From a phage, in the sequence record PZ150740.1: 50,699 nt of DNA; one strand, 5' to 3'. This document shows, piece by piece, positions 5 to 48,099 of the stretch (position 1 is its first letter; each line of letters opens with the position of its first letter). The notes beneath the pieces are model-generated. The model saw only the letters and a program-made list of their open reading frames with translations, had not been told where the DNA came from and did no database searches. The position numbers and the translations under genes are program-made.

Positions 5-49
5 ACTTTATCAAATGCCCTTGCGGAAGTTTTAACAAAAAGTGCTATT
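5..49 (-). promoter_or_regulatory. box promoter unit (box 29-49, -10-like TAAAGT 5-10); leader continues at window end
   Basis: Perfect box; 18-bp spacer; stop of gene 48-338 in box. Confidence 0.5.
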
Positions 50-4414: not shown

Positions 4415-4458
4415 ATTATACCTGGCCCCACATTTGAGTTTTAACAAAAAGTGCTATT
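4415..4458 (-). promoter_or_regulatory. box promoter unit (-10 TATAAT, 17-bp spacer)
   Basis: Perfect box 4438-4458; hairpin GGGCC/GGCCC around -10. Confidence 0.55.
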
Positions 4459-6169: not shown

Positions 6170-6633
6170 TATTGCTCCTCCTCTTTGATGATTTCGCGGA
6201 TCATATCCTGGTAGCGGCTTACGCCCTCACAAGCTCCAGCCAGTTTATCCCCTTCCAGGTCCACGATGTTCGGAATTGCTGCCAGTAAGCGATCGGCAAA
6301 CTTTTTGATCGCCCTTGCCTTGATAGCTGGCAATTCTTCGGGTGTGATGATTTTCCTTTTCGATTCTCGGACCATGCGGAAAACGTAAAATTTATCATCT
6401 TCCGTTTCCTCAACCTTGATGCTTACCCGACCTGCGGCCCTTACTTCTGGAACGCGGTTGATAATGGTCCGGCTGTAGGATGAACTGCGCGTGATCTTGT
6501 AGCAGTCATCGCCGCTTAACATTCCGGCCAGGTCAATTAGTGACATTTTATACTCTTCAATATCGCCACTAGCCAGGCGGCGACCAAGCTCGCGAAGCCA
6601 ATCGCAATAGTCCTTAGTGGTCTTCTGTTCCAT
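6169..6633 (-). CDS. hypothetical early protein (start adjusted to MEQKTTK)
   Basis: ORF track frame; strong RBS GGAGGAAAGGAA before ATG at 6633; first gene after leftward consensus promoter. Confidence 0.5.
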   Translation of the reverse strand: MEQKTTKDYCDWLRELGRRLASGDIEEYKMSLIDLAGMLSGDDCYKITRSSSYSRTIINRVPEVRAAGRVSIKVEETEDDKFYVFRMVRESKRKIITPEELPAIKARAIKKFADRLLAAIPNIVDLEGDKLAGACEGVSRYQDMIREIIKEEEQ

Positions 6634-6664
6634 TTCCTTTCCTCCAGTTGTTGACTGTTGGCGC

Positions 6665-6692
6665 ATTATAAAAGCTATTTGGTGCGTGTCAA
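6665..6692 (-). promoter_or_regulatory. near-consensus sigma70 promoter (TTGACA-16-TATAAT) for leftward early genes
   Basis: Minus strand reads TTGACAcgcaccaaatagctttTATAAT immediately upstream of gene 6169-6633. Confidence 0.6.
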
Positions 6693-7114
6693 TGTTTTTG
6701 TTGTATTCAAAACGTTACCAATATCGAAAAACTACAAAATCATGCGCAAGTTGTTGATTTCAGGGCTGTTATTTTTCTGTTCACGCTGTTAACGCAATCC
6801 GCCGGAAAAAGTATATATACATATGCAATCCGCCGCGCGCGCAACTATCCATATATACCCACACACAACCAGACCATAACCAACAAAAAGCACTGTAACA
6901 GTGAGAACAAAAAGAAAACATTATAGATATATATAAATAAATAATCTTTATTTTCAATGTATTATAGAGGGATTTTTTTGTTTTTTCCGTTTTCGCTACA
7001 CCGGAAAACCGCGCGGAAACACGCCGCCTGAAATCGGTAACAGGGGTGAACAAAAGACAACAACCACTGACAGCCAGGCGGAAAAGTGAGGCAAGAGGGG
7101 AAGGTTTCACTATC

Positions 7115-7220
7115 TCCCCTGCAACCAATGATTAAACGTGATTACTTTTCTCATCAAATTTGCAAAGGCAATCATCATTTTGACGTGATTTGATTACGAA
7201 TGATTACTTTTGATTATTTC
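7115..7220. repeat. cluster of GATTA(C) direct repeats (iteron-like) in divergent control region
   Basis: About six copies of (T)GATTAC/GATTT within ~100 bp, e.g. tgattacttttc twice. Confidence 0.35.
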
Positions 7221-7246
7221 GATCACAATCCTGGCGCTAACCGTCA

Positions 7247-7291
7247 AATAGCACTTTTTGTTAAAACTCAGACCACCTGATCGGGTACATT
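7247..7291 (+). promoter_or_regulatory. box promoter unit (-10-like TACATT)
   Basis: Perfect box 7247-7267; leader ACACACATCGAAACGAA. Confidence 0.55.
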
Positions 7292-7325
7292 ACACACATC
7301 GAAACGAACCGCTCAGGAGATAGCA

Positions 7326-7598
7326 ATGAACATCAGCAAAACCACTTTCAACTTCGCTAAGCGTCACGGTCTGGATCTGACTGTTGAAGACTTCGGCGAT
7401 GTTCTGCAACTCTGCATATGGGAAGCAGATAACGATTGCGAGTGGCTTTGCTCTTACCGTATCAACTACGATTGCTTGACCTGGCACGGCAATATCTATC
7501 TGCCGCAAGAAGTGAAGGAAGAATTGCCAGCGACTATCAACAACGAAGTTTTCTTGCGTCAGGTGCTGAAATTTATCAGTGAGGAGATCAAGAAGTGA
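7326..7598 (+). CDS. hypothetical early protein
   Basis: ORF track; box unit 7247-7291 upstream. Confidence 0.55.
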   Translation: MNISKTTFNFAKRHGLDLTVEDFGDVLQLCIWEADNDCEWLCSYRINYDCLTWHGNIYLPQEVKEELPATINNEVFLRQVLKFISEEIKK

Positions 7599-8330: not shown

Positions 8331-8374
8331 ATAGCACTTTTTGTTAAAACTCAATCCTCTCATTCCTGTACATT
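8330..8374 (+). promoter_or_regulatory. box promoter unit (-10-like TACATT)
   Basis: Perfect box; leader ACACGCATCGACAACGAA. Confidence 0.55.
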
Positions 8375-11497: not shown

Positions 11498-13078
11498 ATG
11501 TTTTCATTAGAAACGAACAAATTAACTCCACAGCAAATAATCGCTATGGCTGAAAGCCAGAACCTTTCACCAGTTCGCGTATCAATTCAGGCTAACGGCT
11601 ATCGCCAGTCGTCCAGCTTTTGGGGCGACGTGAAGGATGTAAATAGCGGTCATGATCGCTACCCCGTTATTTCTCTTGGTAATGATATTGATGTTGTAGG
11701 CAAGTTATCACGCAGTATTGCGCGATCCGTTCAATTTCCTGAATCATCGGCTTACATGCACTTTATCGGCTGCATTTCCGCCGCTATGCTTGGACGCTTT
11801 ACGGTTGACTATCACGGAACCGATCAGCCGACTGCGCTTTACGTGGTTACAAGCCAGCCGCCGTCAACTGGTAAATCTGCGATCAACAGTATGGCTATTG
11901 CTCCGATGATTGCGGAAGTTGAGAAGATCAACGAGCAACGCCGCAAGGAAAGAAAGAAAATACAGGCAAAGTTGGCAGGTCTTGCAAAGGAGATGAAAAG
12001 CGAAAGATCCGGCGCTGATATGGAATCTCTATACCAGGAAAAAGAGGATCTGGAGGAGAAGCTGGAAAAGATGTGTGATATAACTTTCCCTGTTTCAGAT
12101 ACAACTCCAGAAGGCTTGGCGAAAATCAACAACAAGCAAGGTAACTTTGCCGTAATATCTGACGAAGCAACAAGTATTAATAGCCTGTTAGGCTTGACCT
12201 ATGCAAATAGCGAAAGGAAGACTAACAGTGAGCTAGTGCTTAAGGCGTGGGATAATGGTCACGTATCAATTGCCCGTGCTAATGCTGACAATAATATGAG
12301 TTTTCGCGCGCTTGGATGCATGAGCGTTATAGCACAGGATGAAACGATAAGCGGTATCATGGACGCTGGATCGCGCGGTATCGGTGTGAGTGAGCGCTTT
12401 TTGTTGGTCCGCGAAGAATCATTCTTAGGCCGTCGCTCATTCATTGATGAAAATGGTGATTCTACCTATGAGGCGGTGGATTCTGAATTGAAAGCCCAAT
12501 ATTATCAATTGGTGCATAACATCATGAGCGAATCAAATATATCGCTGAAAATAAGCCGCTCAGCTATGCGAGTGCTCAACATTGCTCGTCAGGATATGGA
12601 ACCGCATCTTGCAGACGGCGGAAAGTATTCTCATACAATGTTACGCGGTGCGCTGGGTAAAATGGATAAACAGGTGATCAGGCTTGCTTCCGTCCTGCAT
12701 GTTATCCGTAACTGGTTTAATCCTGCCGGATACCCGCAGAAGTCGAAAGAGATCGACGTGGAAACAATGCAAGAGGCGTTGATCATGTTTCAGGAATTGA
12801 GCAAAACATACATTAGCGCCGCCAATGCTTCTGGTTATGCTGGTGATGATGCTGAAATGGGTAAATTGATTGAATTGATCACGAGGCACGGCAAGGCTAA
12901 CAAAGGGATTCTGAATATTCGCGCCCTGTACGAATCAGCGAGAAAGGTAAAACCTTTCGTTGGTCAGGCTGGCGTAATGAAGAGGATAGAGGGGCACTTG
13001 CTGCCAATGCTGGAAGAAAGAAATTATGTTTGTGTGATTAATGGTGTTATTTTTGTCAATCCAATACTGCTGGGATGA
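11498..13078 (+). CDS. large early protein, possible replication-associated ATPase
   Basis: 526 aa; deviant P-loop-like PPSTGKS; placement in early right block; family assignment uncertain. Confidence 0.35.
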   Translation: MFSLETNKLTPQQIIAMAESQNLSPVRVSIQANGYRQSSSFWGDVKDVNSGHDRYPVISLGNDIDVVGKLSRSIARSVQFPESSAYMHFIGCISAAMLGRFTVDYHGTDQPTALYVVTSQPPSTGKSAINSMAIAPMIAEVEKINEQRRKERKKIQAKLAGLAKEMKSERSGADMESLYQEKEDLEEKLEKMCDITFPVSDTTPEGLAKINNKQGNFAVISDEATSINSLLGLTYANSERKTNSELVLKAWDNGHVSIARANADNNMSFRALGCMSVIAQDETISGIMDAGSRGIGVSERFLLVREESFLGRRSFIDENGDSTYEAVDSELKAQYYQLVHNIMSESNISLKISRSAMRVLNIARQDMEPHLADGGKYSHTMLRGALGKMDKQVIRLASVLHVIRNWFNPAGYPQKSKEIDVETMQEALIMFQELSKTYISAANASGYAGDDAEMGKLIELITRHGKANKGILNIRALYESARKVKPFVGQAGVMKRIEGHLLPMLEERNYVCVINGVIFVNPILLG

Positions 13079-17106: not shown

Positions 17107-17832
17107 TTAGCTCCGTTTGCGTGCGCGACGTTCGGTTACAGAAGGGCAAATATCGCTGATCTTAACGTATCGCGTTTTCTGCTCCTCGCCTTCTTTAAGT
17201 TTGCGCATGACAAAAATCACGCTTCCCTTGTTGTTGCCCTGCACAGGCTCACCAGTCAATCCAGACACAAAGGCGATTCTTCCGGTGCGGGAGTATTCTA
17301 CTCCACCCTCTTCGTAAACCTCGCCAGTGATCCAGATGATTTCAGCCGCGTTTTTCTGCGCTTCATAAAACCATGCTGTAGAGTTGTCGGCTGGCAACAA
17401 AACATCAATTTGGTTGTTGTGCTCCATTTGCTCAATTGCTTTCTTGATAAATGGAGTTGGGTTGCTGTACGGTGGGTTAAGCCATACGTGCTTGTTGCTA
17501 CCCCACCAACGCTTTAAGCAGTTTGTTTCCTTGCTATAGAACTTCTCGCAAACTGCGTTTTCCTGGCTTGCTGCTGCGTCGAGATCGTATTCACCAAATT
17601 CTGATTCCATCCACTCCACGATCTCTTGAGGAGTGCTCCACATATCGCGCACAACGTCCGGCGTGGTGCTTCCAGCGTATCGGTTGCCGCTTACCTTATA
17701 ATATTGATTTGGCTTTACTGCCTGGTAATGGCCTCCAGTTGCAAGGGCATTCCCTATAAACGTTTCTCTCTCCAACTGCTCAAAGCTAACGAATGCGTCA
17801 TGAGTGTCTTTATCTAAAATATCTTTAGCCAT
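17107..17832 (-). CDS. dam: DNA N6-adenine methyltransferase (Dam-like)
   Basis: NPPY motif (WLNPPYSNP); box unit upstream. Confidence 0.75.
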   Translation of the reverse strand: MAKDILDKDTHDAFVSFEQLERETFIGNALATGGHYQAVKPNQYYKVSGNRYAGSTTPDVVRDMWSTPQEIVEWMESEFGEYDLDAAASQENAVCEKFYSKETNCLKRWWGSNKHVWLNPPYSNPTPFIKKAIEQMEHNNQIDVLLPADNSTAWFYEAQKNAAEIIWITGEVYEEGGVEYSRTGRIAFVSGLTGEPVQGNNKGSVIFVMRKLKEGEEQKTRYVKISDICPSVTERRARKRS

Positions 17833-17871: not shown

Positions 17872-17916
17872 ATTATGGCGCAATCCATCGCGCCAGTTTT
17901 AACAAAAAGTGCTATT
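17872..17916 (-). promoter_or_regulatory. box promoter unit upstream of Dam gene (-10-like CATAAT)
   Basis: Perfect box 17896-17916; spacer hairpin GGCGC/GCGCC. Confidence 0.55.
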
Positions 17917-20325: not shown

Positions 20326-20357
20326 CTTAAACCTTTAAAAAATGCCATTTGGAGTAT

Positions 20358-20402
20358 ATAATAGACTCATTACAATAAACTGTTTTAACAAAAAATGCTA
20401 TG
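20358..20402 (-). promoter_or_regulatory. box promoter unit upstream of helicase (-10-like TATTAT), overlapping divergent plus-strand TATAAT
   Basis: Box with 2 mismatches; plus-strand TATAAT at 20357-20362 for gene 20413. Confidence 0.5.
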
Positions 20403-20412
20403 AGGTGACTAG

Positions 20413-20889
20413 ATGAAAGATGCACGAATTGCAGTGTCTACGGGTGAGATCGACAAGCGCACTATTAACGGTAACAACGGAACGCGACGAGGTAAAGACA
20501 AAAAGCCACGAAAACACCGAACCGGATTTCTTATCCTGCGAGATGAGGTAAAAGCAAGCCTGAAATCTCGCCTTGACATTCTGATCGAGTATTACGGCGG
20601 TGTTCCTGCTATGGCTCGGCGTCTGCGCGTATCTCAGCAGGTAGTTAACCAATGGCGAAAGCGTGGTATGATTTCAGCCGCCGGAGCGCAAAAGGTGCAT
20701 AACGACTACAAATATAATGGATGCAAAGGATACCGCGCCTCGTTTTGTCGTCCAGATCTGCGGTTTGACTCTAACGGTAAGCCCATTACTACCCGTTGCG
20801 ACAAATACGAAATGTTGCGCGTAGTCAAAAATTCAGACTACGAACCTGGTGGGCGATTCTACAAAGGTGATAACAGCACGAATAGCTAA
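20413..20889 (+). CDS. putative HTH DNA-binding regulator
   Basis: Segment GVPAMARRLRVSQQVVNQWRKRG resembles Cro/YdaS-type HTH; basic N-terminus. Confidence 0.45.
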   Translation: MKDARIAVSTGEIDKRTINGNNGTRRGKDKKPRKHRTGFLILRDEVKASLKSRLDILIEYYGGVPAMARRLRVSQQVVNQWRKRGMISAAGAQKVHNDYKYNGCKGYRASFCRPDLRFDSNGKPITTRCDKYEMLRVVKNSDYEPGGRFYKGDNSTNS

Positions 20890-20896
20890 TGATAAG

Positions 20897-20932
20897 GCCC
20901 AGCGAAATGATAATATTTGCTGGGCTTTTTTT
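20897..20932 (+). terminator. rho-independent terminator
   Basis: GCCCAGC ... GCTGGGC hairpin followed by TTTTTTT. Confidence 0.5.
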
Positions 20933-20945
20933 ATTGAGGTTTGCT

Positions 20946-21875
20946 ATGAACACTGAAAACTTTATGACCTATCAGAAAGAAGATGTTTTGCCATATATGA
21001 AGGGGTTATGGCGTGAAGCTCTACAAAGCATTTGCGGACTGCATAGCGATGTTTTCAACAAAAAGCATCAGCCTTGCCCACACTGCGGCGGTAAGGATCG
21101 TTTTAGATGGACTGATAAGTTAAACGAAGAGGGCGACGGCGGCGCGATCTGCAACGTGTGCGGTAACGACACTGGAATCGGTTGGTTAATGAAATTGACT
21201 GGAGAACCTTACAGCGAGGCCATCAACATTTTGGGCCGCTTCCTCGGCAAAGTGCCACAAGATTACAGGATCAGAGCAAACAAACGCGCTTCACGTTCTT
21301 CTGGCTACTCGTTCGGGAAACAGGCAAGTCATGAATGCTGCGAAAAAGTGATGGCAAAAACATTAAAATTCGATCGCACACCTTTAAGCGTTTATGAGGG
21401 GATATATCCGCCGGAAGATTGTCATTATGATTGCGGCGTCAAGGATGGTCGATACATTCACGCGCTACCTTGTCACCTGGTGCATGATGACGGGCTGGAT
21501 GATGAAATGTGTAACGTGCTTTTCATTGATGAGGATGGAAAGGATTGGTTTTTAGCTCGCGACTACACGCGCGGATCTGTTGTTAAAACAGGTAGCACGG
21601 ATAAGACGATCTATTTGTGCCTTGATTGGGTTGACTCCCAACACGTTCATTTATCAACTGGTCAAGAGGTGTGGGCCTGTTTTACTCCTTCAAATCTTGA
21701 AATGGTTGCGCATAGATATAAAGGAGAAAGAAGAATGCGCGTAGTCTGCCGGAAAGATGATCGTGATGTGATAATCGCGGCAGAGGAAAGAGGTCTTGAC
21801 ATAATGATGCCTGTTAACGATAATTTTAAACAGGGCGTAGAAAGAAAACTCTACAAGCCCGAATCACTGCTATAA
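20946..21875 (+). CDS. primase-like protein with zinc-ribbon (start adjusted to MNTENF)
   Basis: CPHCGGKDRFRW ... CNVCG zinc-binding motif typical of primase zinc-ribbon domains. Confidence 0.65.
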   Translation: MNTENFMTYQKEDVLPYMKGLWREALQSICGLHSDVFNKKHQPCPHCGGKDRFRWTDKLNEEGDGGAICNVCGNDTGIGWLMKLTGEPYSEAINILGRFLGKVPQDYRIRANKRASRSSGYSFGKQASHECCEKVMAKTLKFDRTPLSVYEGIYPPEDCHYDCGVKDGRYIHALPCHLVHDDGLDDEMCNVLFIDEDGKDWFLARDYTRGSVVKTGSTDKTIYLCLDWVDSQHVHLSTGQEVWACFTPSNLEMVAHRYKGERRMRVVCRKDDRDVIIAAEERGLDIMMPVNDNFKQGVERKLYKPESLL

Positions 21876-21916: not shown

Positions 21917-21981
21917 GCACTTGAAAATGCTATTATCTGCATTATCATTAGCAAAAAGTGCTATTTAGGAGGATTTTACAA

Positions 21982-24612
21982 ATGGCGATTTACAGACAAG
22001 GCCAAGCGTCTATGGACGCGCAAGGTTATGTAACTGGTTACGATACAAAATGGCGTGAGCAATTAACATTGATTCGCCCAGGTGCAACTATTTTCTTTCT
22101 TACTCAACCTTTGCAAGCTGCTGTGATTACAGAGGTGATTAGCGATACAAGCATTCGCGCAATTACTACTGGCGGCGCGGTAGTCCAGAAGACAAATTAC
22201 CTGATCTTGCTTCATGACTCGTTGACGGTTGACGGGCTGGCGCAGGACGTAGCGGAAACATTGCGTTACTATCAAAGCAAGGAAACGGAGATTGCTGACG
22301 CGCTTGAATTTTTTAGAGATTTCGATCTTGATGGGTTGAAAGATCTTGTAAATCAGGTGAAACAAGGCGCTGAATCAGCAAAACAAAGCGCTAGTGCCGC
22401 AAAGACTTCTGAAACAAACGCTAAAACATCGGAAACTAATGCCAAAGCATCTGAAAATGCAGCCAATGCAAGTAAGAATGCGGCTAAAACATCGGAAACT
22501 AATGCTGCTAACTCGGCTAGTGCCGCAAAGACTTCTGAAACAAACGCCAAAACATCGGAAACTAATGCCAAAGCATCTGAAAATGCAGCCAATGCAAGTA
22601 AGAATGCGGCTAAAACATCGGAAACTAATGCTGCTAACTCGGCTAGTGCCGCAAAGACTTCTGAAACAAACGCCAAAACATCGGAAACTAATGCCAAAGC
22701 ATCTGAAAATGCAGCCAATGCAAGTAAGAATGCGGCTAAAACATCGGAAACTAATGCTGCTAACTCGGCTAGTGCCGCGAAGACTTCTGAAACAAACGCT
22801 AAAACATCGGAAACTAATGCTGCAAACAGTGCAAACAAGGCTAAAACAGAGGCTGATCGCGCAGCGGCTGCTGCTGGAAGCTCAGAGGCTCAGAATAGAG
22901 TGCCGTATGCTGGTGTAACATTACCTGCGCCTACTGGCGTAAGGGATATGCTCAAGCGGTTGCGCGATACTGTCAAAGGAGGATTCTGGCGCGTCGATGA
23001 TATTACGCAGTTCCCTTCTGGCGAGATGACGCCGTTCAGGTATGGTCCAGGGGTGTGCGGCGGCGCTGGTGACACATTTTTTGCGTTTAACGTTGACTAT
23101 CAGACCTCTCGCGTGAAGGTTTTCGCTGGAAACAATGCCGCGATTAACGGCTCATCTGGAAATGTGGGTGCCATTGAACTGGCGAAGCTGGGTGCTAACG
23201 GTGACGTGGCGATCGGAGACGGCGGGACAGGCGCATCGAACGACCAGGGAGCGCGCGCAAACCTTCAGGTCATGCATGAGCGCCGGGCAACGTTGGTTAG
23301 TGAAGACCTTAACATCCTTCAGGGTGATAAGGCTGGATTTTATTATACTAGCTTATCTGCCAACGCAACGCCGGAGCGTAATTATCCCGTTCAGGAAGCA
23401 GGTTGTCTACTTGTTCAGCGCACTGGCGCTAACGATCCTAAAAGCTGCATACAGACGTTTACAGGATACAATAGCGGGCGTCGTTTTATGCGATGGCTTA
23501 GTAACGCGACTACTGGCATCTGGTCGAAATGGTACGAGTTGTATAACGCGGGGTCGTCGCCGGAATATAACGCTTACGTGAGAGCTAAAAGCGGTGATCG
23601 AATCGTCGAAATGTTTGTAGGAGGCACGGATGTTGGCATTCGCAACCGCACGTCGCAGAAAGTGCTACAGCTGCGTGATGATGGAGGCCTTTCGTATGAC
23701 AACAAGCTGATCGCGTATAACGGACTTGTAGCCAGCGGCACCTTCGCTATGACCGTACCAAGCATTAAAGTTACAACCGCTAATGGCGGTTTTCGTATCG
23801 ACGGAACAGCATCAACAAACAACCAACCGCTGCACGTAACAGGGTACAACTCCGCAGGCACGCGTCTTTGGTTTTTAGGTAAAGATACTGGAACGAGTGC
23901 GTTATTTCTAAATGACATAACGAAAAGCAAGGTTGAACTTATCGATTCTGGGGTTGTGTTAGGTACGAAAGACTTTGCGGGAAAAGCATATGTACAGGCG
24001 GCGAGTTTAGAGATAGACCGACCGAGTGGTAAGTATTTCAAAATGCAGAACGACGGAAACTCATCACACCCTGCAAGTTTCAAATTGTGGGGGAACGGGT
24101 CAGATAGACCGTCTGTTATTGAGTGGGCTTTCGATAACGGCCCTGGGTGGGTTTTTTACGGTCAGTTAAATAAAGATAACTCAAAGCATCTTCAAGTTAA
24201 CGGCCCTGTAAATGCGACAGCATTCAATCAAGCATCTGACAGAGATCTTAAGGACAACATTGAGGAGATTGATAACGCAACTGAATCATTGCGCAAAATG
24301 AGCGGATACACTTACACGCTTAAGGAGAATGGTTTACCTTATGCTGGGGTAATTGCTCAAGAAGTAATGGAGGCAATACCGGAAGCTGTTAGCGGATTCA
24401 CTCGGTACACGGATCTTGCTGGTCCAACTAAGGATGGAAATCAGCTAGTTGGCGAGGAAAGATTCTTATCTGTTGATTATGGCGCTGTTACTGGATTGCT
24501 TGTGAAAGTATGCCGTGAAAGTGACGATCGCATAAGCAAACTTGAAAATGAGGTTGCAGAATTAAAAGATTTACTGTCAAAGCTAATCAACAATCCTACT
24601 ACTCTTAACTAA
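21982..24612 (+). CDS. tail fibre with tandem Ala/Ser/Thr-rich repeats and C-terminal intramolecular chaperone domain
   Basis: 42-aa repeat x3.4; C-terminal [13 protein letters not shown]...YAGVIAQEV...LENEVAELK typical of autocleaving chaperone domains. Confidence 0.8.
22390..22819 (+). repeat. intragenic tandem repeat, 126-bp unit, about 3.4 copies, near-identical
   Basis: Unit starts at 22390, 22516, 22642, 22768; only 1-2 substitutions between copies. Confidence 0.85.
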
Positions 24613-26927: not shown

Positions 26928-26957
26928 CTTTAATGCTCCTGGTTGCTTTGTGTGTGC

Positions 26958-26985
26958 ATTGTAGCCATTTGGTTGATTTAGTCAA
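26958..26985 (-). promoter_or_regulatory. near-consensus sigma70 promoter (TTGACT-16-TACAAT) for recombination genes
   Basis: Minus strand reads TTGACTaaatcaaccaaatggcTACAAT; spacer resembles promoter at 6665-6692. Confidence 0.55.
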
Positions 26986-27353
26986 TAGTTGTTTTGTTTT
27001 TTCTGTTTTCTAAACGTTCTCAGATGGCAATAAAACAAATTTGACGCGTAAGTTAATGATTAATATGTGTTATTTTTCTTGTTCCCTTGTTCTCTCAGAT
27101 ACGCCGGATTATATACATACACATGAATGATGGCACATACAGATACTCAGAAAGAAAAATCACCACAAACAACCAAAACCACAAGAAACACAGATAACAA
27201 GAAAAAACAAATATACATACATAAATAAATAAACTATTGATTTTATATGTATATATCTATTTTGTTGATTATTTATTGTTCTTATGTTGGCTAAAATTTG
27301 CGCTAAATTTACGCCGTCTTAAATCCGATAACACCGGAAAACAAAAAATAACA

Positions 27354-27397
27354 TGTAGCACTTTTTGCTAAACCCAGCTTGTCGGATCGTGTATAGT
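27354..27397 (+). promoter_or_regulatory. degenerate box promoter unit (-10-like TATAGT) upstream of lipoprotein gene
   Basis: TGTAGCACTTTTTGCTAAACC (4 mismatches); leader TACAGTCAACAACAAC. Confidence 0.45.
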
Positions 27398-27428
27398 TAC
27401 AGTCAACAACAACTAAGGAGTATTGAAG

Positions 27429-27704
27429 ATGAAAAAATTAATCGCAGTTATAGCCACCGTAGCCGCTCTGACCGGATGTTCTTCTTCGCCTACTGGCAAC
27501 TTCAAGGAGATCGATTGCACGGCAAAATTTAACGTTAAAACATTCCCTGTTAACGGATTCCATGAGGTTAAAATTAATGCTGTCCGCGAAAACAGATTCA
27601 GCCAAAAGCAATACAGGTTGAGCGTTGACAATAAAGAAGTTAAATTTATCAACCGTTGGCAAGATGAAAGAAAATTCATTGATTTGAGGTGCAAAAATGG
27701 CTGA
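27429..27704 (+). CDS. lipoprotein
   Basis: Signal peptide with lipobox ALTGCSS; start adjusted to ATG at 27429. Confidence 0.55.
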   Translation: MKKLIAVIATVAALTGCSSSPTGNFKEIDCTAKFNVKTFPVNGFHEVKINAVRENRFSQKQYRLSVDNKEVKFINRWQDERKFIDLRCKNG

Positions 27705-28622: not shown

Positions 28623-31600
28623 ACCAACTTCCGGTTATTCTCCCTATCTCAACCCTCAATTGTCCATTTGCATCTTTCACCTTTAATCCTTCGTTAGTGA
28701 ATTTTGTAGCTCCTTCTCCCGCTCTCGTTCCGTAGTTCTCAAAGTTACCATTTTTATCAAGCCTCCATCCTTGCTGATTCTGAACAAAGTTATTTGACTG
28801 AATCACGTTACCAATCATTGCGTTAGTAATGGACCCGTTTTTCACTAGCAGGCTGTTAATGAAAACCTGGTTGTTTTCAACAACGAAAGGCAAAGTAAAC
28901 GTTCCGCCAGTAGAGCTAGTCATGATCGCGAACCTGTTAGCATCAAACAAGATTTGCGAGATCAAGCCTTGAGAAGATTGCGACAACTGCATGATCATTC
29001 CTGCGCTGTACTTCTGCCCCTTGTAAGTAAGGCCCAATTTCATAGCGTACTTAGCGCCAACAGAATCAACGTTAGCCCACGAATCAAGTTTTTCGGCTAG
29101 TGCTGATTCAACGTCTCCGAATTTGGCTGTTAAAGCCTGGTCAGCCTGAACCCTTGCCTCTGTCTCATTAGCGATAGCCTGTCTTACTTCTGAGATGTTC
29201 GCCTCAACATCAACCTTGATTGCATCGTTAAGGTCATTAATCTCTTTCGAAAACTTAGCGTCAAGCTGCTGAACGGCTTGCGCACGCGCTTCTGATTCAT
29301 TGGTAATGGTTTGCCTTACCTCGCCAATACTTGCAGCCGTATCTCGTTTTACGCCGTCTATTTCCTTCGTAAATTTAGAATCAAGCTGCTGAACTTGAGT
29401 AGCTCGCGTCTCTGCTTCGTTGGCAATCGCTTCCTGAACGGTTTTGATACTTGAAACTATATCGTCATCAATTGAAGCCTTTAACTCTTCGATTTGAGTT
29501 ACTCGCGCCTCCGTTTCGTTGGCGATAAGCTCAAGAGCGTGACCATATTCAGCCTTGCGCTTTCCGTTTTGTACTCGCGTCCATTTCACATCAGCATCGT
29601 TTGCCAATGCGTTCTGGATGATTGATTGCGCCTGGTCTTTGATTTTGTTGGCACTGTCTATGGCGTTCTCTTTGATTTCTTGACCCGCTTCGGTATCAAA
29701 AATCTTGTCCAGAATGTCGCCTAAAACAGATTCAACATCATCTGACGCCATGCCGCGAACAAAGTCAGTCCAGCCGGAAACATTGCCGATCCTGTCAACG
29801 CTACGGATTCTATACCATACAACTTGCCCCGCTGGTAACGTGCTATGCCAATACTCATATTGAGGATACGGGATCAGAGTAAGCAAACTTGAGTTTTCCA
29901 CTGTTCCATCTGGCGATTGGTGAAGCTCAATGTAAGCCGTATCTCCAGACCCTTCCGGCATACCCCATTTGACACGAATGCCAAAAACTTCATTATCAGA
30001 AGCTGTAAGATTAATCGGCGCTCCTGGCTCGCCAACTTTACCCGTCAGGGTGGCGGTTGCAATCTTTGACCACGGGGAGGTGTTCCCACTTGCAGAAACA
30101 GATCTAACCCTTACTTGATAGTTCCCCGCGTAAATTCCTTCCACCTCTATCTCTTTGTTAGCTGTCTGCGGCGTGTTCAGCCAGTTACCATCACCTTTTC
30201 GCCATTGCATTTCATACAGTGACGCATAAGGAACTTTTTCCCACGACACAACCATAGTTTCAACGCTGACGCCCTGCACGACGCGAGAATAAGAAGAGAT
30301 CTGCACGTTATCAGGTGCTGCCATCACGTCAGGTTGAACAATTGAAGTTGGCCTGTCATCAATGTTTACGCCATAATCAATCTCGTCGTATTTGTTCGGA
30401 TCGTACTCCACAGCCGTGATTGAAAAGGTAAACTCGTTTTCGTCATCACCCTTGCTGATAGTTGTCACAACGTATTGCTGCAACGCAAGGTCAGTGCGGT
30501 CAATCGCAAAAACAGTATCAGGCTTAACATCAAAACCAAAGCCAATATTTAACTCAATGGTTTTTCCGTCTGCGCTCACCTTTGAGATCGTTCGCTTAAC
30601 TGGCTTTCCGTCCGGCTTGTTGATGATAATAAAATCACCAGGACGAGCATCAACCTTAAACGGAACGAAAACCTGCAATCCTGAAACTTCCATCACTCGG
30701 CCCGATAGGTTTAACGTTAGGTTGCTGCTCTGAAAATTATCAGCGATAGCAATCACATCACCTATTGATGGAATCATCCCCTCCAGTCCAGTAGCAAAGT
30801 TTACAGTAGTGCTTCTAAGGTTTGTTTTCAAAACCCACCGACCGCGACGATTCGCTTCGCTCCTGCGTGTACACCCGATCGCTGTAATGCTTGTTGGATT
30901 GTATCCAAATCGTAATGCCGCCTCAGTATCAAAAACACCCTCTACGTCCTGTTGATACATGTTTTGTTCGTCGTCAAACGTCACATTACATTGCGTGTAC
31001 ATGCTTTTTTCGCTTGCTGCTGTGTACTGAAAATCACCGTTGATGACGTTTTCATTAGTAAACACGTATGATGGATCGCGCGGTTTATCAATCACGATTG
31101 ATAAGCTCTCTCCATTCCAAAAGCTCATTCCGCGAAAGATTGAGCAAATGTCACGGATTAGCTGATAAGCCTCTACTTGATTCTGGATCACCACATCGCA
31201 TAGGTAGCGAGGCTCTGTCCCGCCCTTGCCGTCTGGAACTTTCTGATCACAGTAAACACCTGCCTCGTATAAGCTCCACTTGTCGATCTGTATTCCTAAC
31301 TCTCGCTGGTCAAGCCCATAACGCTGATTCGTCACCAGATCATAAAGAACCCATGCAGGATTATTTGACCACGCTTTTTTAAAAGTCCCATCCCATGACC
31401 CGTGATATTCTCTTGATATTGGATCATAGTTGCTTGGCACATTAATAATCTTCCATTTCTTTTTTATAGAAATGTTAGGGATTTGCGTAGGAAACAATTC
31501 GCTGTCAAATTCTACGAATACAAGGCCAGTCAGAGGATAACGGAATTTTGCATCCACAACCTCAGCGTAACTTTGCAGTTTGATTTTATCAGTCACCTTT

Positions 31601-38122: not shown

Positions 38123-38145
38123 CTCAAGATCTCCTTATAGCACTT

Positions 38146-38190
38146 TTTGTTAAAAGTGGAATTAATTTATTTGATAGATTGATTTTACAG
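38146..38190 (+). promoter_or_regulatory. orphan box copy, antisense to tail operon
   Basis: TATAGCACTTTTTGTTAAAAG + 18 bp + TAGATT on plus strand; its complement abuts RBS of G gene. Confidence 0.4.
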
Positions 38191-41889: not shown

Positions 41890-41910
41890 GATAGCACTTT
41901 TTGTTAAACG
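41890..41910 (+). promoter_or_regulatory. orphan box copy, antisense to head operon
   Basis: GATAGCACTTTTTGTTAAACG; no good -10 at fixed spacing. Confidence 0.35.
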
Positions 41911-46466: not shown

Positions 46467-46530
46467 ATCTCCATAATAAAAAAGGCTGGAAAAATCCAGC
46501 CTTGATTATATAACTTTTTAGCAATTAGTG

Positions 46531-48099
46531 CTATTTATTGCGTAGACCAGCCAGCTTTTTCATCCTTGCCACCGGATCATCTGCCAAATTCATTTCGACG
46601 TTAACAGCATCAACTATATTATCGACAATATCATCATGGGGATGAGAATCATCAAAAGTGAATGCTGCAACCTCTGCCAGTATCTCAGGCAGCATGGGGT
46701 GATTTTCTGGCAGTGCCACACGTCCGGCCCTCATCACTGGCGCGGCGTCCATTGCTCGCGTTACCTTGTCATTGCTTCGCTGAACGGGATTTATATCAAT
46801 CTGGATCTTCTTTTTGGCCCCCTGAATCAAACCCGTGCCGCTGGCCTTATCCTCAATGTGGATACGTCGCAAGCTGCCACACTCCTTATTGCGCTTCCAG
46901 CACTGATTAACGAAGGCAATAAAATTTAATTCAAGATCCGGCGCTTCCCACTTTCCGCGAATGCCATCAATGAAGTAAACGCGATTCTTATACATCCCCC
47001 AATAACAAAAAACTGAATAGTCGTTAAGCTCTCCGGCCTTCTGCGCGGTATCTCCAGTAATAAATGTGTATTCAAAGCGATCCGGTTTTGGTAGTGCGCA
47101 TTTTTCGCCGCTGCCGTAATACTGGAACCACTCTGTTTTAAACACGTTCCCGCCAAGCGCGATTGGTTGCTGTTGGTATTGGCTGGCGAACGTGTAAGGA
47201 TCTGCATTGCGCAATGCAAGCAATTCCTCCGCGCTTTCCTTTGCAGGCCAAAATGAATAATGAGCAACGCCATCTATCATAACTGGCTTACTTGACAGCA
47301 CATCACGATCAAATTCAGGCTTCAACCAATCAGGAAGCGTCTCGCGGTATTCTTTCGTAACCAGCGCCGGAATGCTCACAACTTTAAACTCGATACCACC
47401 CATCCCGCCATTAAGCATAAACCAGGTGGAATCATTAACGTGTAGTCGCTGTTGCACCATAACAATCGGCGTGGTGTCTTTCATTCGACGCGATCGCACT
47501 GTGTTTTTTAACCGCATGTGGATAGCCTCACGCTTTACCTTAGAAAGCATATCATCCGGCTTGTCTGGATCGTCAAGAACCAGCATACCAGTAAAACCAT
47601 CGTCCATATAGCCGCCACGCAAACCTGTTACCTGGCCGCCAATAGAACGTGAGTTAACTTGCAATTTAACCTTGCCGCCTTCGGTGACTATCAGATCTTT
47701 AGCGCTCGCCTTTGCCAGTTTTCCTGGCCATAGCTCTTGCCACTCAGGAGAACCAATAATCTCCTTTATCCGGTTGCTGTTTTGCTGGACAAGGCCATCA
47801 CTAAACGAAAGGTTAAGGTTTCTCACTTTCCGGCTTTTCAATGACGCGTAGGGTGACATGTGGATCGAGAAAATCTCAGTCTTACCGCTACCTGGCGTAA
47901 TGTTGAAAATCACATTCTGCGACTCTCCATTGATGATCTTCTCTACCTCACTGCACAATAAGCTAAAATGCCAGTTGCTCTGGAATTTTTGCCCCTGCAA
48001 TAACTGGAACCAGATTCTGATCATCTTTTCGAATGAATGCTCACTGATTTCTTTAATGGCTCGCTTTTGCGCCGCCGTCAAATCTTCCCATATGATCAT
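46531..48099 (-). CDS. terminase large subunit
   Basis: Walker A-like NITPGSGKTE, Walker B MLVLDDPDK; size 522 aa. Confidence 0.85.
   Translation of the reverse strand: MIIWEDLTAAQKRAIKEISEHSFEKMIRIWFQLLQGQKFQSNWHFSLLCSEVEKIINGESQNVIFNITPGSGKTEIFSIHMSPYASLKSRKVRNLNLSFSDGLVQQNSNRIKEIIGSPEWQELWPGKLAKASAKDLIVTEGGKVKLQVNSRSIGGQVTGLRGGYMDDGFTGMLVLDDPDKPDDMLSKVKREAIHMRLKNTVRSRRMKDTTPIVMVQQRLHVNDSTWFMLNGGMGGIEFKVVSIPALVTKEYRETLPDWLKPEFDRDVLSSKPVMIDGVAHYSFWPAKESAEELLALRNADPYTFASQYQQQPIALGGNVFKTEWFQYYGSGEKCALPKPDRFEYTFITGDTAQKAGELNDYSVFCYWGMYKNRVYFIDGIRGKWEAPDLELNFIAFVNQCWKRNKECGSLRRIHIEDKASGTGLIQGAKKKIQIDINPVQRSNDKVTRAMDAAPVMRAGRVALPENHPMLPEILAEVAAFTFDDSHPHDDIVDNIVDAVNVEMNLADDPVARMKKLAGLRNK

What the first reader, a model, noticed from the sequence alone, without database searches (positions are those of the whole stretch)
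6634..7325. Two paralogous A/C-rich divergent control regions with phased A-tracts and near-consensus sigma70 promoters
Regions 6634-7325 and 26928-27428 are the only long ORF-free stretches. They share segments in the same orientation (ataaataaata; caccggaaaac; A/C-rich runs such as acacaaccagaccataaccaacaaaaag versus caccacaaacaaccaaaaccacaagaaac, with AAC every 9-10 bp, suggesting curved DNA). Each has a leftward near-consensus sigma70 promoter with a similar spacer (TTGACA-16-TATAAT at 6665-6692; TTGACT-16-TACAAT at 26958-26985) and a rightward box unit (7247; 27354). They look like duplicated immediate-early control hubs and could also hold origins or non-coding RNAs.
Basis: seen in the sequence. 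Interest (0 to 1): 0.6.

Follow-up and report, generated by a model that had tools for sequence, protein, structure and literature searches.

The report
Twin non-coding control/origin-like modules, T1-like phage
The two long gene-free stretches of this T1-like coliphage genome are real, ancient duplicates of one ~400-bp non-coding module, made of a strong early promoter, an IHF-like site, five phased TGTT repeat sites and the most easily melted DNA in the genome. This makes them the best candidates so far for the still unmapped replication origins and early control hubs of the T1 phage family.

Summary
The window is a complete T1-like coliphage genome (Drexlerviridae, Tempevirinae, about 98% identical to SECphi27 and tonnikala). 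Positions 6665-7062 and 26958-27353 align collinearly (score 95 against 22.8 +/- 2.6 for shuffles), and these are the only two copies in the genome.

Both copies are conserved at the same syntenic positions across the family, T1 included. Each contains:
- a leftward sigma70 promoter (12/12 and 10/12 matches);
- an IHF-like site;
- five ~23-bp "triple-TGTT" sites arranged -> -> <- [core] -> <-;
- two CGCCG(G) motifs;
- a TA-rich core that is the least stable DNA in the genome.

The "rightward box" is the known ~20-copy ATAGCAC repeat and is not specific to these regions. Copy A carries an extra 185-bp segment of 10-bp-phased TGATTA repeats. This segment lies on the side where the T1 and TLS records place pac.

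Neither a structured RNA nor a coding reading is supported. The best reading is a nucleoprotein assembly module that combines an immediate-early promoter hub with a probable replication origin (confidence about 0.45). The main rival is a transcription-only function. It is a new member of a known kind, of moderate interest, and directly testable.

The parts
6665..6692 (-). P_left(A): TTGACA-16-TATAAT, driving the leftward early-gene arm (first gene DUF7174, ATG at 6633)
   Evidence: Only 12/12 sigma70 consensus match in the genome. An A-rich UP-like block lies immediately upstream.
6693..6708 (+). Block I: T-rich partial TGTT site, at the UP-element position of P_left(A)
   Evidence: Conserved block in the alignments. 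A site position occupied in 14 of 38 homologues.
6747..6759 (-). IHF-like core (reverse complement AATCAACAACTTG = WATCAANNNNTTR)
   Evidence: TAAGTnnnTGA is conserved in both A- and B-type elements. The consensus is quoted from established knowledge.
6767..6790 (+). Triple-TGTT site 1 (TGTTATTTTTCTGTTCACGCTGTT)
6800..6805 (.). CGCCGG motif, first copy
   Evidence: Conserved block V.
6858..6896 (+). A/C-rich spacer. Its composition is conserved but its sequence is not.
6897..6920 (-). Triple-TGTT site 2
   Evidence: 33 of 38 homologues.
6909..6990 (.). TA-rich core, a candidate DNA-unwinding element. It contains a conserved minus-strand TATAAT at 6966..6961 and block X (a plus-orientation TGTT site) at 6973-6993.
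   Evidence: 6909-6968 is the second least stable 60-mer of the genome. TA-repeat k-mers are nearly exclusive to A and B. For TATAAT conservation.
7022..7027 (.). CGCCGC motif, second copy
   Evidence: Conserved block XI.
7039..7062 (-). Triple-TGTT site 3 (reverse complement TGTTGTCTTTTGTTCACCCCTGTT)
   Evidence: 30 of 38 homologues.
7063..7247 (+). A-specific segment absent from B. It holds five TGATTA repeats at exact 10-bp phasing (7129, 7139; 7191, 7201, 7211) and is the probable pac / terminase recognition region.
   Evidence: P about 1e-6. The segment is present at 172-250 bp in all A-type copies, with clade-specific repeats. The ends of the T1 and TLS records lie on this side.
7248..7291 (+). 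ATAGCAC box (7248-7265) plus a -10-like TACATT (7286-7291), forming the rightward promoter unit before the gene at 7326
   Evidence: This is the known 21-nt repeat of TLS.
26958..26985 (-). P_left(B): TTGACT-16-TACAAT, driving the exonuclease VIII - Erf - SSB operon
   Evidence: Homologous to TLS P51.
26995..27007 (+). Block I of B (TGTTTTTTCTGTT)
27049..27061 (-). IHF-like core (reverse complement AATCATTAACTTA, 12 of 13 positions)
27068..27091 (+). Triple-TGTT site 1 of B
27102..27107 (.). CGCCGG motif, first copy
27187..27209 (-). Triple-TGTT site 2 of B
27210..27290 (.). TA-rich core of B, including block X at 27254-27285
   Evidence: 27217-27276 is the least stable 60-mer of the genome.
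27312..27316 (.). CGCCG motif, second copy
27330..27353 (-). Triple-TGTT site 3 of B
27355..27397 (+). ATAGCAC-type box (27355-27372) plus a -10-like TATAGT (27392-27397), before the cor-like gene at 27429

Best explanation
Each region is one copy of a ~400-bp non-coding nucleoprotein-assembly module that T1-like phages carry twice.

**Shown from sequence and comparison**
- The module begins with a near-consensus host sigma70 promoter firing leftwards. An A-rich UP-like block and an IHF-like site lie upstream of it.
- It ends next to a generic ATAGCAC-box promoter firing rightwards.
- In between lie five ~23-bp sites, each made of three TGTT tetramers about 10 bp apart. They are arranged -> -> <- [core] -> <-.
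- This arrangement gives two convergent pairs, each enclosing a CGCCG(G) motif.
- The pairs flank a TA-rich core that is the most easily melted DNA in the genome. The core carries a conserved leftward TATAAT.

**Inferred**
- The module is the immediate-early transcription hub and, at its centre, a replication origin.
- A sequence-specific protein (phage or host) and IHF would bind the phased sites and bend the DNA.
- Transcription from the flanking or internal promoters would help open the TA core.
- The phage's own replicative machinery would then enter. This machinery is the MCM-like DUF3987 helicase with a C-terminal winged helix and the P4-alpha-like primase. Host Pol III would follow.
- The two copies (A beside pac, B beside the recombination genes) would act as twin origins, as in SPP1 oriL/oriR or P4 ori/crr.
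- The extra 185-bp segment of copy A is most likely the pac / terminase recognition region, not part of the shared function.
For: **Paralogy and copy number**
- Alignment score 95 against 22.8 +/- 2.6 for shuffles.
- Only two copies in the genome.

**Conservation**
- B-type elements lie upstream of exonuclease VIII in 26 or more loci.
- A-type elements lie upstream of the DUF3987 helicase in 25 or more loci.
- Degenerate copies sit at both syntenic positions in T1.
- The most widely conserved part is site 2 plus the TA core and block X, not the promoters.

**Unwinding element**
- The cores are the two least stable 60-mers of the genome: dG -0.97/-0.98 against a genome mean of -1.37 +/- 0.08 kcal/mol per step.
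- TA-repeat k-mers are almost exclusive to A and B, both here and in T1. In T1, TATATATA occurs 8 of 8 times in these regions.

**Repeat sites**
- Three exact triple-TGTT sites per element, against 0.02-0.03 in 2000 shuffles of the same region.
- Six of the eight genome occurrences lie in A or B.
- The five site positions are conserved across 38 homologues.
- Site 2 to site 3 spacing is 142-144 bp or 134 bp, a difference of one helical turn.
- In T1 a different 7-mer, TGTTACA, occurs 6 times in 48.8 kb, and all six are in the two regions.

**Other evidence**
- An IHF-like core is conserved in both types.
- Promoters.
- The one paper found that looked for an origin in these phages (TLS) reported no iterons, so origin-type cis elements remain unassigned in what I could search.
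- The region is not coding and not a structured RNA.
Against: - There is no experimental evidence of initiation here, and none was found in the searchable literature.
- AT-rich, IHF-bound upstream regions are also typical of strong phage early promoters, such as lambda pL and Mu Pe.
- The TGTT sites sit in low-complexity T-rich DNA and are degenerate.
- A-type copies in some clades lack several sites or the whole left half.
- No dedicated initiator (O/Rep/DnaA-like) was identified. The winged helix of the helicase is generic and shows no detectable relation to the P4 alpha origin-binding domain.
- The exact P4 iteron core TGTTCAC is not enriched in the genome: 6 found against 5.95 expected.
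- GC skew is fully confounded with coding strand.
- In T1 the site arrangement differs between A and B.
Confidence: 0.45

Rival explanations
1. Transcription-only hub. The whole module is upstream regulatory DNA for the immediate-early promoters. IHF bends the DNA so that A-rich, UP-like sites contact the RNA polymerase alpha subunits, as at lambda pL. The TGTT sites are operators for a phage regulator (for example the Cro-like HTH protein at 20413-20889) or for a host response regulator. That regulator switches early transcription on or off. The TA core is a third, leftward promoter. Replication starts elsewhere or by recombination.
For: - P_left(A) and P_left(B) are the best sigma70 sites in the genome.
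- TLS annotators found only three intergenic sigma70-like promoters, two of them at the homologous places.
- Block I sits at the UP-element position, and the IHF-like core lies about 55-70 bp upstream of the -35 hexamer, i.e. roughly -90 to -100 from the predicted start (sequence).
- An exact TATAAT on the minus strand at the core edge is present in 24 of 40 copies, including both T1 copies.
- A shared spacer motif, CCAAAT(A/G)GC, occurs in three early promoters, including the primase-operon promoter.
- Direct repeats at 10-11-bp spacing are typical of winged-helix transcription factors (established knowledge).
- In T1's A region, TGTAACAC-N16-GTGTTACA lies next to the leftward promoter.
Against: - The best-conserved part lies 200-300 bp upstream of P_left. 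That is farther than usual for sigma70 activation.
- About 330 bp of block-wise conservation, with a dyad-like arrangement around the least stable DNA, is more than two promoters need.
- The internal TATAAT has no -35 hexamer and is absent from the clade containing the window's B copy.
- This reading does not exclude an origin role; many origins are promoter-coupled.
Confidence: 0.33
2. Packaging element. The shared module is a terminase (TerS) recognition array, comparable to lambda cosB with its three R sites and an IHF site. Under this reading A and B would both be pac sites.
For: - The record ends of T1 and TLS (pac) lie next to the A element, and PMC7718038 places pac in this untranslated region.
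- The element has sites of mixed orientation plus an IHF-like site, reminiscent of cosB (established knowledge).
Against: - The ends of the T1 and TLS records fall in or beyond the A-specific segment, which B lacks.
- That segment has its own clade-specific phased repeats, TGATTA here and TTATTCC/GGAATAA in T1.
- Restriction mapping of TLS gave a single submolar pac fragment. From memory, T1 packaging series likewise start from one pac site.
Confidence: 0.05
3. Non-coding RNA genes. Each region would encode a duplicated regulatory RNA, for example a CA-rich sponge from the plus strand or a G/U-rich RNA from the minus strand.
For: - A strongly strand-asymmetric A/C-rich spacer is conserved in composition.
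- A conserved minus-strand TATAAT could start a leftward transcript.
- One weak terminator-like hairpin lies at 6903-6891.
Against: - No Rfam family matches.
- Consensus structure energies are -0.81 (plus strand) and -2.59 (minus strand) kcal/mol, and the few predicted pairs are largely invariant (3 of 10 show any double-sided change).
- MFE z-scores are -1.0/-1.2 for A.
- The hairpin is not conserved in B or in other clades.
- The spacer sequence itself is the most variable part.
Confidence: 0.05

Closest known systems
SPP1 oriL/oriR and P4 ori/crr (phages with two related cis-acting replication regions)
   Same: - Two paralogous non-coding regions lie far apart in one phage genome.
- Each has arrays of short repeats next to AT-rich DNA.
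- The phage supplies its own primase and helicase.
- The P4 type-1 repeat TGTTCACC was verified in NC_001609. It resembles TGTTCAC(G/C) in sites 1 and 3 of copy A.
   Different: - TGTTCAC is not enriched in the genome.
- The sites here are about 23 bp long, with three TGTT tetramers.
- No P4-alpha-type origin-binding domain or SPP1 G38P-like initiator was found.
- No replication data exist.
SaPI/PICI origins and archaeal ORB-DUE origins (repeat sets in opposite orientation flanking an AT-rich melting region)
   Same: - Inverted sets of phased sites flank the most unstable DNA.
- The helicase is MCM-like (DUF3987, SF6) with a C-terminal winged helix.
   Different: - No Rep or Orc1/Cdc6-type initiator is encoded.
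- The sites are T-rich and degenerate.
- The element is embedded between divergent promoters.
T4 oriF/oriG and T7 primary origin (promoter plus downstream AT-rich unwinding element, RNA-primed)
   Same: - Promoters lie directly next to an AT-rich core.
- A conserved TATAAT points into the core and into a stretch that would give G/U-rich RNA on C/A-rich template, which would favour an R-loop.
   Different: - Host sigma70 promoters are used, not phage-specific ones.
- There are additional repeat sites and an IHF-like site.
- R-loop formation is pure inference.
Lambda pL / Mu Pe type early promoters activated by upstream IHF and UP-like DNA
   Same: - The promoter is a strong early promoter near consensus.
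- An A-rich block lies upstream of the -35 hexamer.
- An IHF core lies roughly 90-100 bp upstream of the predicted transcription start.
   Different: Conservation extends a further 250 bp and is centred on a TA core flanked by repeat sites.
21-nt direct repeat of phage TLS (aaATAGCACnnnTTGnTAAAA; PMC11447400)
   Same: About 20 copies occur in this genome, in the direction of transcription.
   Different: It is not part of the duplicated module. In A it lies 185 bp away from the module, and in B it abuts site 3.

Membership tests
Iteron-type / DUE-containing replication origin | An AT-rich DNA-unwinding element of unusually low duplex stability | tested here: met
   6909-6968 and 27217-27276 are the two least stable 60-mers of 50.7 kb, about 4.7 SD from the mean.
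Iteron-type / DUE-containing replication origin | Multiple copies of a repeated binding-site motif next to the unwinding element, beyond chance | tested here: met
   Three exact triple-TGTT sites per element, against 0.02-0.03 in shuffles. Six of eight genome copies lie in A or B, and five positions are conserved in 38 homologues. Protein binding was not tested.
Iteron-type / DUE-containing replication origin | A cognate origin-binding initiator encoded by the element's genome | tested here: inconclusive
   No O/Rep/DnaA-like protein was found. Candidates are the winged helix of the DUF3987 helicase and the Cro-like HTH protein beside the primase.
Iteron-type / DUE-containing replication origin | Replication initiates there (marker frequency, 2D gels, autonomous or infection-dependent replication) | not testable with these tools
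   No data in the tools or in the searchable literature.
P4 ori/crr family | Clusters of the octamer TGTTCACC | tested here: not met
   One exact copy (7045-7052, minus strand) and one TGTTCACG. TGTTCAC occurs 6 times in the genome against 5.95 expected. P4 has 6 in ori and 10 in crr.
P4 ori/crr family | An alpha protein with primase, helicase and a C-terminal origin-binding domain | tested here: not met
   Only the primase domain is homologous (alpha residues 20-263, E 2e-14). The helicase family has no profile similarity to alpha.
Sigma70 promoter | -35 and -10 hexamers with a 16-18-bp spacer | tested here: met
   12/12 at 6692..6665 and 10/12 at 26985..26958. Both are conserved in homologues.
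Sigma70 promoter | A mapped transcription start | not testable with these tools
   No TSS data are available.
IHF binding site | Core WATCAANNNNTTR | tested here: met
   13/13 in A (6747-6759, minus strand) and 12/13 in B. The TAAGTnnnTGA block is conserved in both types. Binding was not tested.
Structured non-coding RNA | A conserved secondary structure with covariation, or a match to a known family | tested here: not met
   Rfam gave 0 hits. RNAalifold gave -0.81 / -2.59 kcal/mol.
Protein-coding gene | An ORF conserved in relatives | tested here: not met
   The 115-aa ORF at 6781-7128 is frameshifted in a 98%-identical relative. Most annotated relatives list no gene here.
pac site (headful packaging start) | Virion DNA ends or a submolar fragment map to the site | not testable with these tools
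   By published records the ends of T1 and TLS lie beside the A element, on the side of 7063-7247. B lacks that segment.
Intrinsically curved DNA (phased A-tracts) | AA/TT periodicity of 10-11 bp above genome background | tested here: inconclusive
   35th-97th percentile of 200-bp windows. No wedge-model curvature was computed.

The most novel reading that the evidence does not exclude
The two modules are twin origins at which an MCM-like (DUF3987, SF6) phage helicase is loaded without a dedicated initiator. Its own C-terminal winged helix would read the inverted triple-TGTT arrays on either side of the TA core, helped by IHF and by transcription. This would be a bacterial-virus counterpart of archaeal ORB/DUE origins. 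It would also be the first mapped origin of the classic T1 family.
Probability: 0.15. Interest if true: 0.75.

Novelty: new member of a known kind. Interest (0 to 1): 0.5.

Why it matters
- T1 is one of the original T phages. Even so, I found no mapped origin, early regulatory circuit or precisely defined pac for it in the searchable literature, and the TLS re-annotation states that no iterons were found.
- A family-wide, duplicated 400-bp module with a defined five-site architecture gives concrete, mutable targets. These could be used to map origins and immediate-early control in Drexlerviridae.
- Drexlerviridae are common laboratory and fermentation contaminants, candidates for phage therapy, and standard test phages in anti-phage defence research.
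- The analysis also separates the shared module from the A-specific, probably packaging-related, segment.

Tried and rejected
- **Rfam scan of the whole window:** no hit.
- **RNAalifold on 21 homologues, both strands:** essentially no structure. Single-sequence z-scores were not significant for A.
- **Coding reading:** rejected.
- **P4-type iterons:** the motif was verified in P4, but TGTTCAC occurs at chance frequency here. The alpha C-terminal domain is absent.
- **Full-text search for TGTTCACC:** useless, 2174 unrelated papers.
- **GC/AT skew for origin mapping:** tracks the coding strand only.
- **AA/TT periodicity:** unremarkable in A and B. The genome maximum lies in the tail-fibre gene.
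- **DnaA boxes:** only 6-7 of 9 matches by eye, and not conserved.
- **BLAST of the cores against plasmids and 5,426 E. coli genomes:** no match, so no link to known replicons or satellites.
- **The search for related loci with the DUF7174 flank protein:** gave only 2 loci. The helicase was used as anchor instead.
- **Literature searches for a T1 origin or transcriptome:** nothing relevant. The T1 genome paper is not held.
- **Fold searches of the helicase C-terminus:** a generic winged helix only, with no specific hit to an origin-binding domain.
Full report
**Identity of the window**

The 50,699-bp window is a complete T1-like coliphage genome. Both query regions match about 100 Drexlerviridae records, at about 98% identity to SECphi27, mar001J1, tonnikala and tunus (Tempevirinae, Warwickvirus).

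- Region A (6634-7325) lies between a leftward DUF7174 gene (ATG at 6633) and a rightward small gene (7326).
- Region B (26928-27428) lies between the leftward exonuclease VIII - Erf - SSB operon and a rightward cor-like lipoprotein gene.
- The phage carries its own primase (20889-21875) and a Cro-like HTH protein next to it (20413-20889).
- It also carries two helicases, one of which is the DUF3987 (MCM-like) type at 11498-13078.

- A local alignment gives one collinear same-strand match, 6693-7062 with 26995-27353. The score is 95, against 22.8 +/- 2.6 in 500 dinucleotide shuffles.
- A profile of the pair finds no third copy in the window.
- The leftward promoters are as described. TTGACA-16-TATAAT at 6692..6665 is the only 12/12 consensus match in the genome, and TTGACT-16-TACAAT at 26985..26958 scores 10/12.
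- Both promoters have an A-rich block just upstream of the -35 hexamer, and their spacers are similar (CCAAATAGC and CCAAATGGC).
- The 115-aa mechanical ORF inside A is frameshifted in a 98%-identical relative, so it is not a gene.
- The rightward box is ATAGCACTTTTTGTTAAA. It has about 20 copies in this genome.
- Most of these box copies are followed about 19-21 nt later by a TATAAT-like hexamer and then a ribosome-binding site.
- The box is the 21-nt direct repeat already described in TLS, whose function is unknown. It is therefore not part of what is duplicated.

**Family-wide conservation**

- Using exonuclease VIII as anchor, 43 IMG/VR loci were fetched, and 26 carry a full-length B-type element upstream of the gene.
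- Using the DUF3987 helicase as anchor, 25 loci carry an A-type element 4-5 kb upstream, in the same orientation.
- T1 itself has degenerate copies at both syntenic places, 218-426 and about 29975-30135.
- Mean identities are A-A 55%, B-B 65% and A-B 56%. An A copy is often as close to the B copies of its own clade as to A copies of other clades. This hints at co-evolution of the two copies.
- The segment found in the most distant genera (Klebsiella, Salmonella, Citrobacter and Enterobacter phages) is window 6906-6994. That is site 2, the TA core and block X, not the promoters.
- Nothing similar exists in 72,556 plasmids or 5,426 E. coli genomes.

**Anatomy**

Alignment of 21, and then 38, homologues shows discrete conserved blocks separated by variable DNA. 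The most informative feature is a ~23-bp site made of three TGTT tetramers, TGTT-N5-8-TGTT-N4-7-TGTT.

- The genome has 8 exact copies, and 6 are in A or B: 6767+, 6897-, 7039-, 27068+, 27187- and 27330-.
- That is 3 per element, against 0.02-0.03 in 2000 dinucleotide shuffles of the same regions.
- Allowing one mismatch, the 38 homologues place such sites at five fixed alignment positions. The orientations are I(+), IV(+), VII(-), X(+) and XII(-).
- The order along the module is therefore: P_left | I-> | IHF-like core | IV-> CGCCGG, TATATACATA, A/C-rich spacer, <-VII | TA core | X-> CGCCG <-XII | (box promoter).
- This gives two convergent site pairs, each enclosing a CGCCG(G) motif, on either side of the TA core.
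- Site 2 to site 3 spacing is 142-144 bp in several clades and 134 bp in another, a difference of one helical turn.
- The IHF-like core (reverse complement WATCAANNNNTTR) is 13/13 in A and 12/13 in B. The block TAAGTnnnTGA is conserved in both types.
- The TA cores, 6909-6968 and 27217-27276, are the two least stable 60-mers of the genome. Their dG is -0.97/-0.98 against -1.37 +/- 0.08 kcal/mol per step.
- TA-repeat k-mers are almost confined to A and B. In the window, ATATACAT occurs 4 of 4 times there and ATAAATAA 5 of 6 times. In T1, TATATATA occurs 8 of 8 times and ATATATA 18 of 20 times.
- An exact TATAAT on the minus strand at the right edge of the core is present in 24 of 40 copies, including both T1 copies.
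- In T1 the repeat motif is different. The 7-mer TGTTACA occurs 6 times in 48.8 kb, and all six are in the two regions.
- This shift between subfamilies fits a binding protein that has co-evolved with its sites.

**What copy A has that B lacks**

- Positions 7063-7247 are absent from B.
- They carry five TGATTA repeats at exactly 10-bp phasing: 7129 and 7139, then 7191, 7201 and 7211 (P about 1e-6).
- All A-type copies have a segment of 172-250 bp here. Its repeats are clade-specific, for example TTATTCC...GGAATAA in T1 and several other clades.
- The T1 record starts inside this segment, where the terminal repeat 1-2800 begins.
- The TLS record, whose start was set at the experimentally mapped pac, begins about 520 bp upstream of its promoter P01, on the same side.
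- PMC7718038 states that pac of T1-like phages lies in this untranslated region.
- I therefore read 7063-7247 as the probable pac / terminase recognition region, and as separate from the shared module.

**What it is not**

- No Rfam family matches.
- RNAalifold gives -0.81 (plus strand) and -2.59 (minus strand) kcal/mol over 466 columns. The only predicted pairs are between the largely invariant TGTTC and GAACA motifs.
- MFE z-scores are -1.0/-1.2 for A and -2.9/-2.3 for B.
- A structured RNA is therefore not supported.
- GC skew follows the coding strand and gives no information on an origin.
- AA/TT helical periodicity is unremarkable, so intrinsic curvature remains unproven.

**Link to the replication machinery**

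- The P4 type-1 origin repeat is TGTTCACC, as verified in NC_001609. It resembles TGTTCAC(G/C) in sites 1 and 3 of A.
- The phage primase is homologous to P4 alpha residues 20-263 (E 2e-14).
- However, TGTTCAC is not enriched here, and no alpha-type origin-binding domain is present.
- So this is a working resemblance, not membership of the P4 family.
- The C-terminal 80 residues of the DUF3987 helicase are predicted with pLDDT above 90 as a winged helix.
- This agrees with the published view of DUF3987 as MCM-like replicative helicases.
- The phage thus brings a helicase and a primase but no recognisable initiator. In the one paper I found that addressed the question (TLS), no origin or iterons were identified.

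**Interpretation**

- *Shown:* a duplicated, family-conserved, non-coding module with near-consensus early promoters, an IHF-like core, five phased repeat sites and the most meltable DNA in the genome.
- *Inferred:* it is the immediate-early promoter hub and, at its centre, a replication origin that is opened with the help of site-bound protein, IHF and transcription. The two copies would act like SPP1 oriL/oriR or P4 ori/crr (confidence about 0.45).
- *Main rival (about 0.33):* the same DNA serves transcription only, with IHF and UP-type activation and operator sites for an early-to-middle switch.
- Support for the rival comes from the promoter quality, the TLS promoter predictions, and a spacer motif shared with the primase-operon promoter at 20334.
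- The two readings are not exclusive.
- A packaging role for the shared module, and an RNA gene, are each unlikely (about 0.05).

**Verdict**

The finding is genuine and is more than a compositional resemblance. It is a new member of a known kind of element (phage control and origin regions), not a new class. Its value is that it gives the T1 family concrete, testable candidates for origins, early control and pac. Interest is 0.5.

Noticed in passing
window, about 20 sites, e.g. 31-48(-), 4440-4457(-), 8331-8348(+), 17898-17915(-), 46517-46534(-): ATAGCACTTTTTGTTAAA usually starts right after the stop codon of the preceding gene. It is often followed by a GC-rich hairpin that overlaps a TATAAT/CATAAT hexamer 19-21 nt downstream, then CATCGAAAC-like sequence and a ribosome-binding site. 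It looks like a compact phage-specific promoter (or terminator-promoter) unit whose -35 is replaced by the box. Its function is still listed as unknown for TLS.
   Followed up: partly
window 38137-38154(+), 41891-41908(+), 21947-21964(-): Three good copies of the ATAGCAC box point against the direction of the surrounding genes. Two lie in the structural-gene block on the minus strand, and one lies before the tail-fibre gene. They may be antisense promoters or bidirectional elements.
   Followed up: no
window 7063-7247: Five TGATTA(C) repeats occur at exact 10-bp phasing in two clusters 52 bp apart, together with an inverted repeat AGGGGA...TCCCCT (about 7097-7122). Other clades have different phased repeats at the same place, TTATTCC/GGAATAA in T1. 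This is probably the terminase recognition / pac region.
   Followed up: partly
window 20326-20412: A third, short divergent region lies between the SNF2/DEAD-type helicase and the Cro-like-HTH/primase operon. It has TTTAAA-17-TATAAT (rightward) with the spacer motif GCCATTTGG. The reverse complement of that motif (CCAAATGGC / CCAAATAGC) sits in the spacers of P_left(B) and P_left(A). This may be a common operator of the early promoters. It corresponds to TLS P57.
   Followed up: partly
window 7280-7291 and 27386-27397: Both box promoters next to A and B have a GATC immediately upstream of the -10-like hexamer (GATCGGGTACATT and GATCGTGTATAGT). This is conserved in B-type homologues. The phage encodes a Dam methylase (17107-17832), so these promoters may be methylation-sensitive.
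   Followed up: no
window 11498-13078, residues about 445-526 of the product: The DUF3987 (MCM-like) helicase ends in a confidently predicted winged-helix domain (pLDDT above 90). It is a candidate for origin or partner recognition.
   Followed up: yes
window about 22300-22900 (tail-fibre gene 21958-24612): This stretch shows the strongest 10-11-bp AA/TT periodicity in the genome and one of the two triple-TGTT matches outside A/B (22825, minus strand). It is probably a coding repeat.
   Followed up: no
public records matched: Eleven to fifteen records named 'Campylobacter phage' (for example A143, A139, A119) match this coliphage region at up to about 80-84% identity over the conserved core. 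A 'Pseudomonas phage Motto' record and a 'Streptococcus' record also match. These look like T1-like phages under unexpected host labels.
   Followed up: no
L003 (T1) 399-425 and 29931-30093: T1's A copy has three tandem 9-bp repeats, GT(G)GTTAATC, beside the CGCCG motif. T1's B copy has TGTTACAC(G) three times around its TA core. The iteron-like motifs therefore differ between the two T1 copies, apart from the shared TGTTACA.
   Followed up: partly
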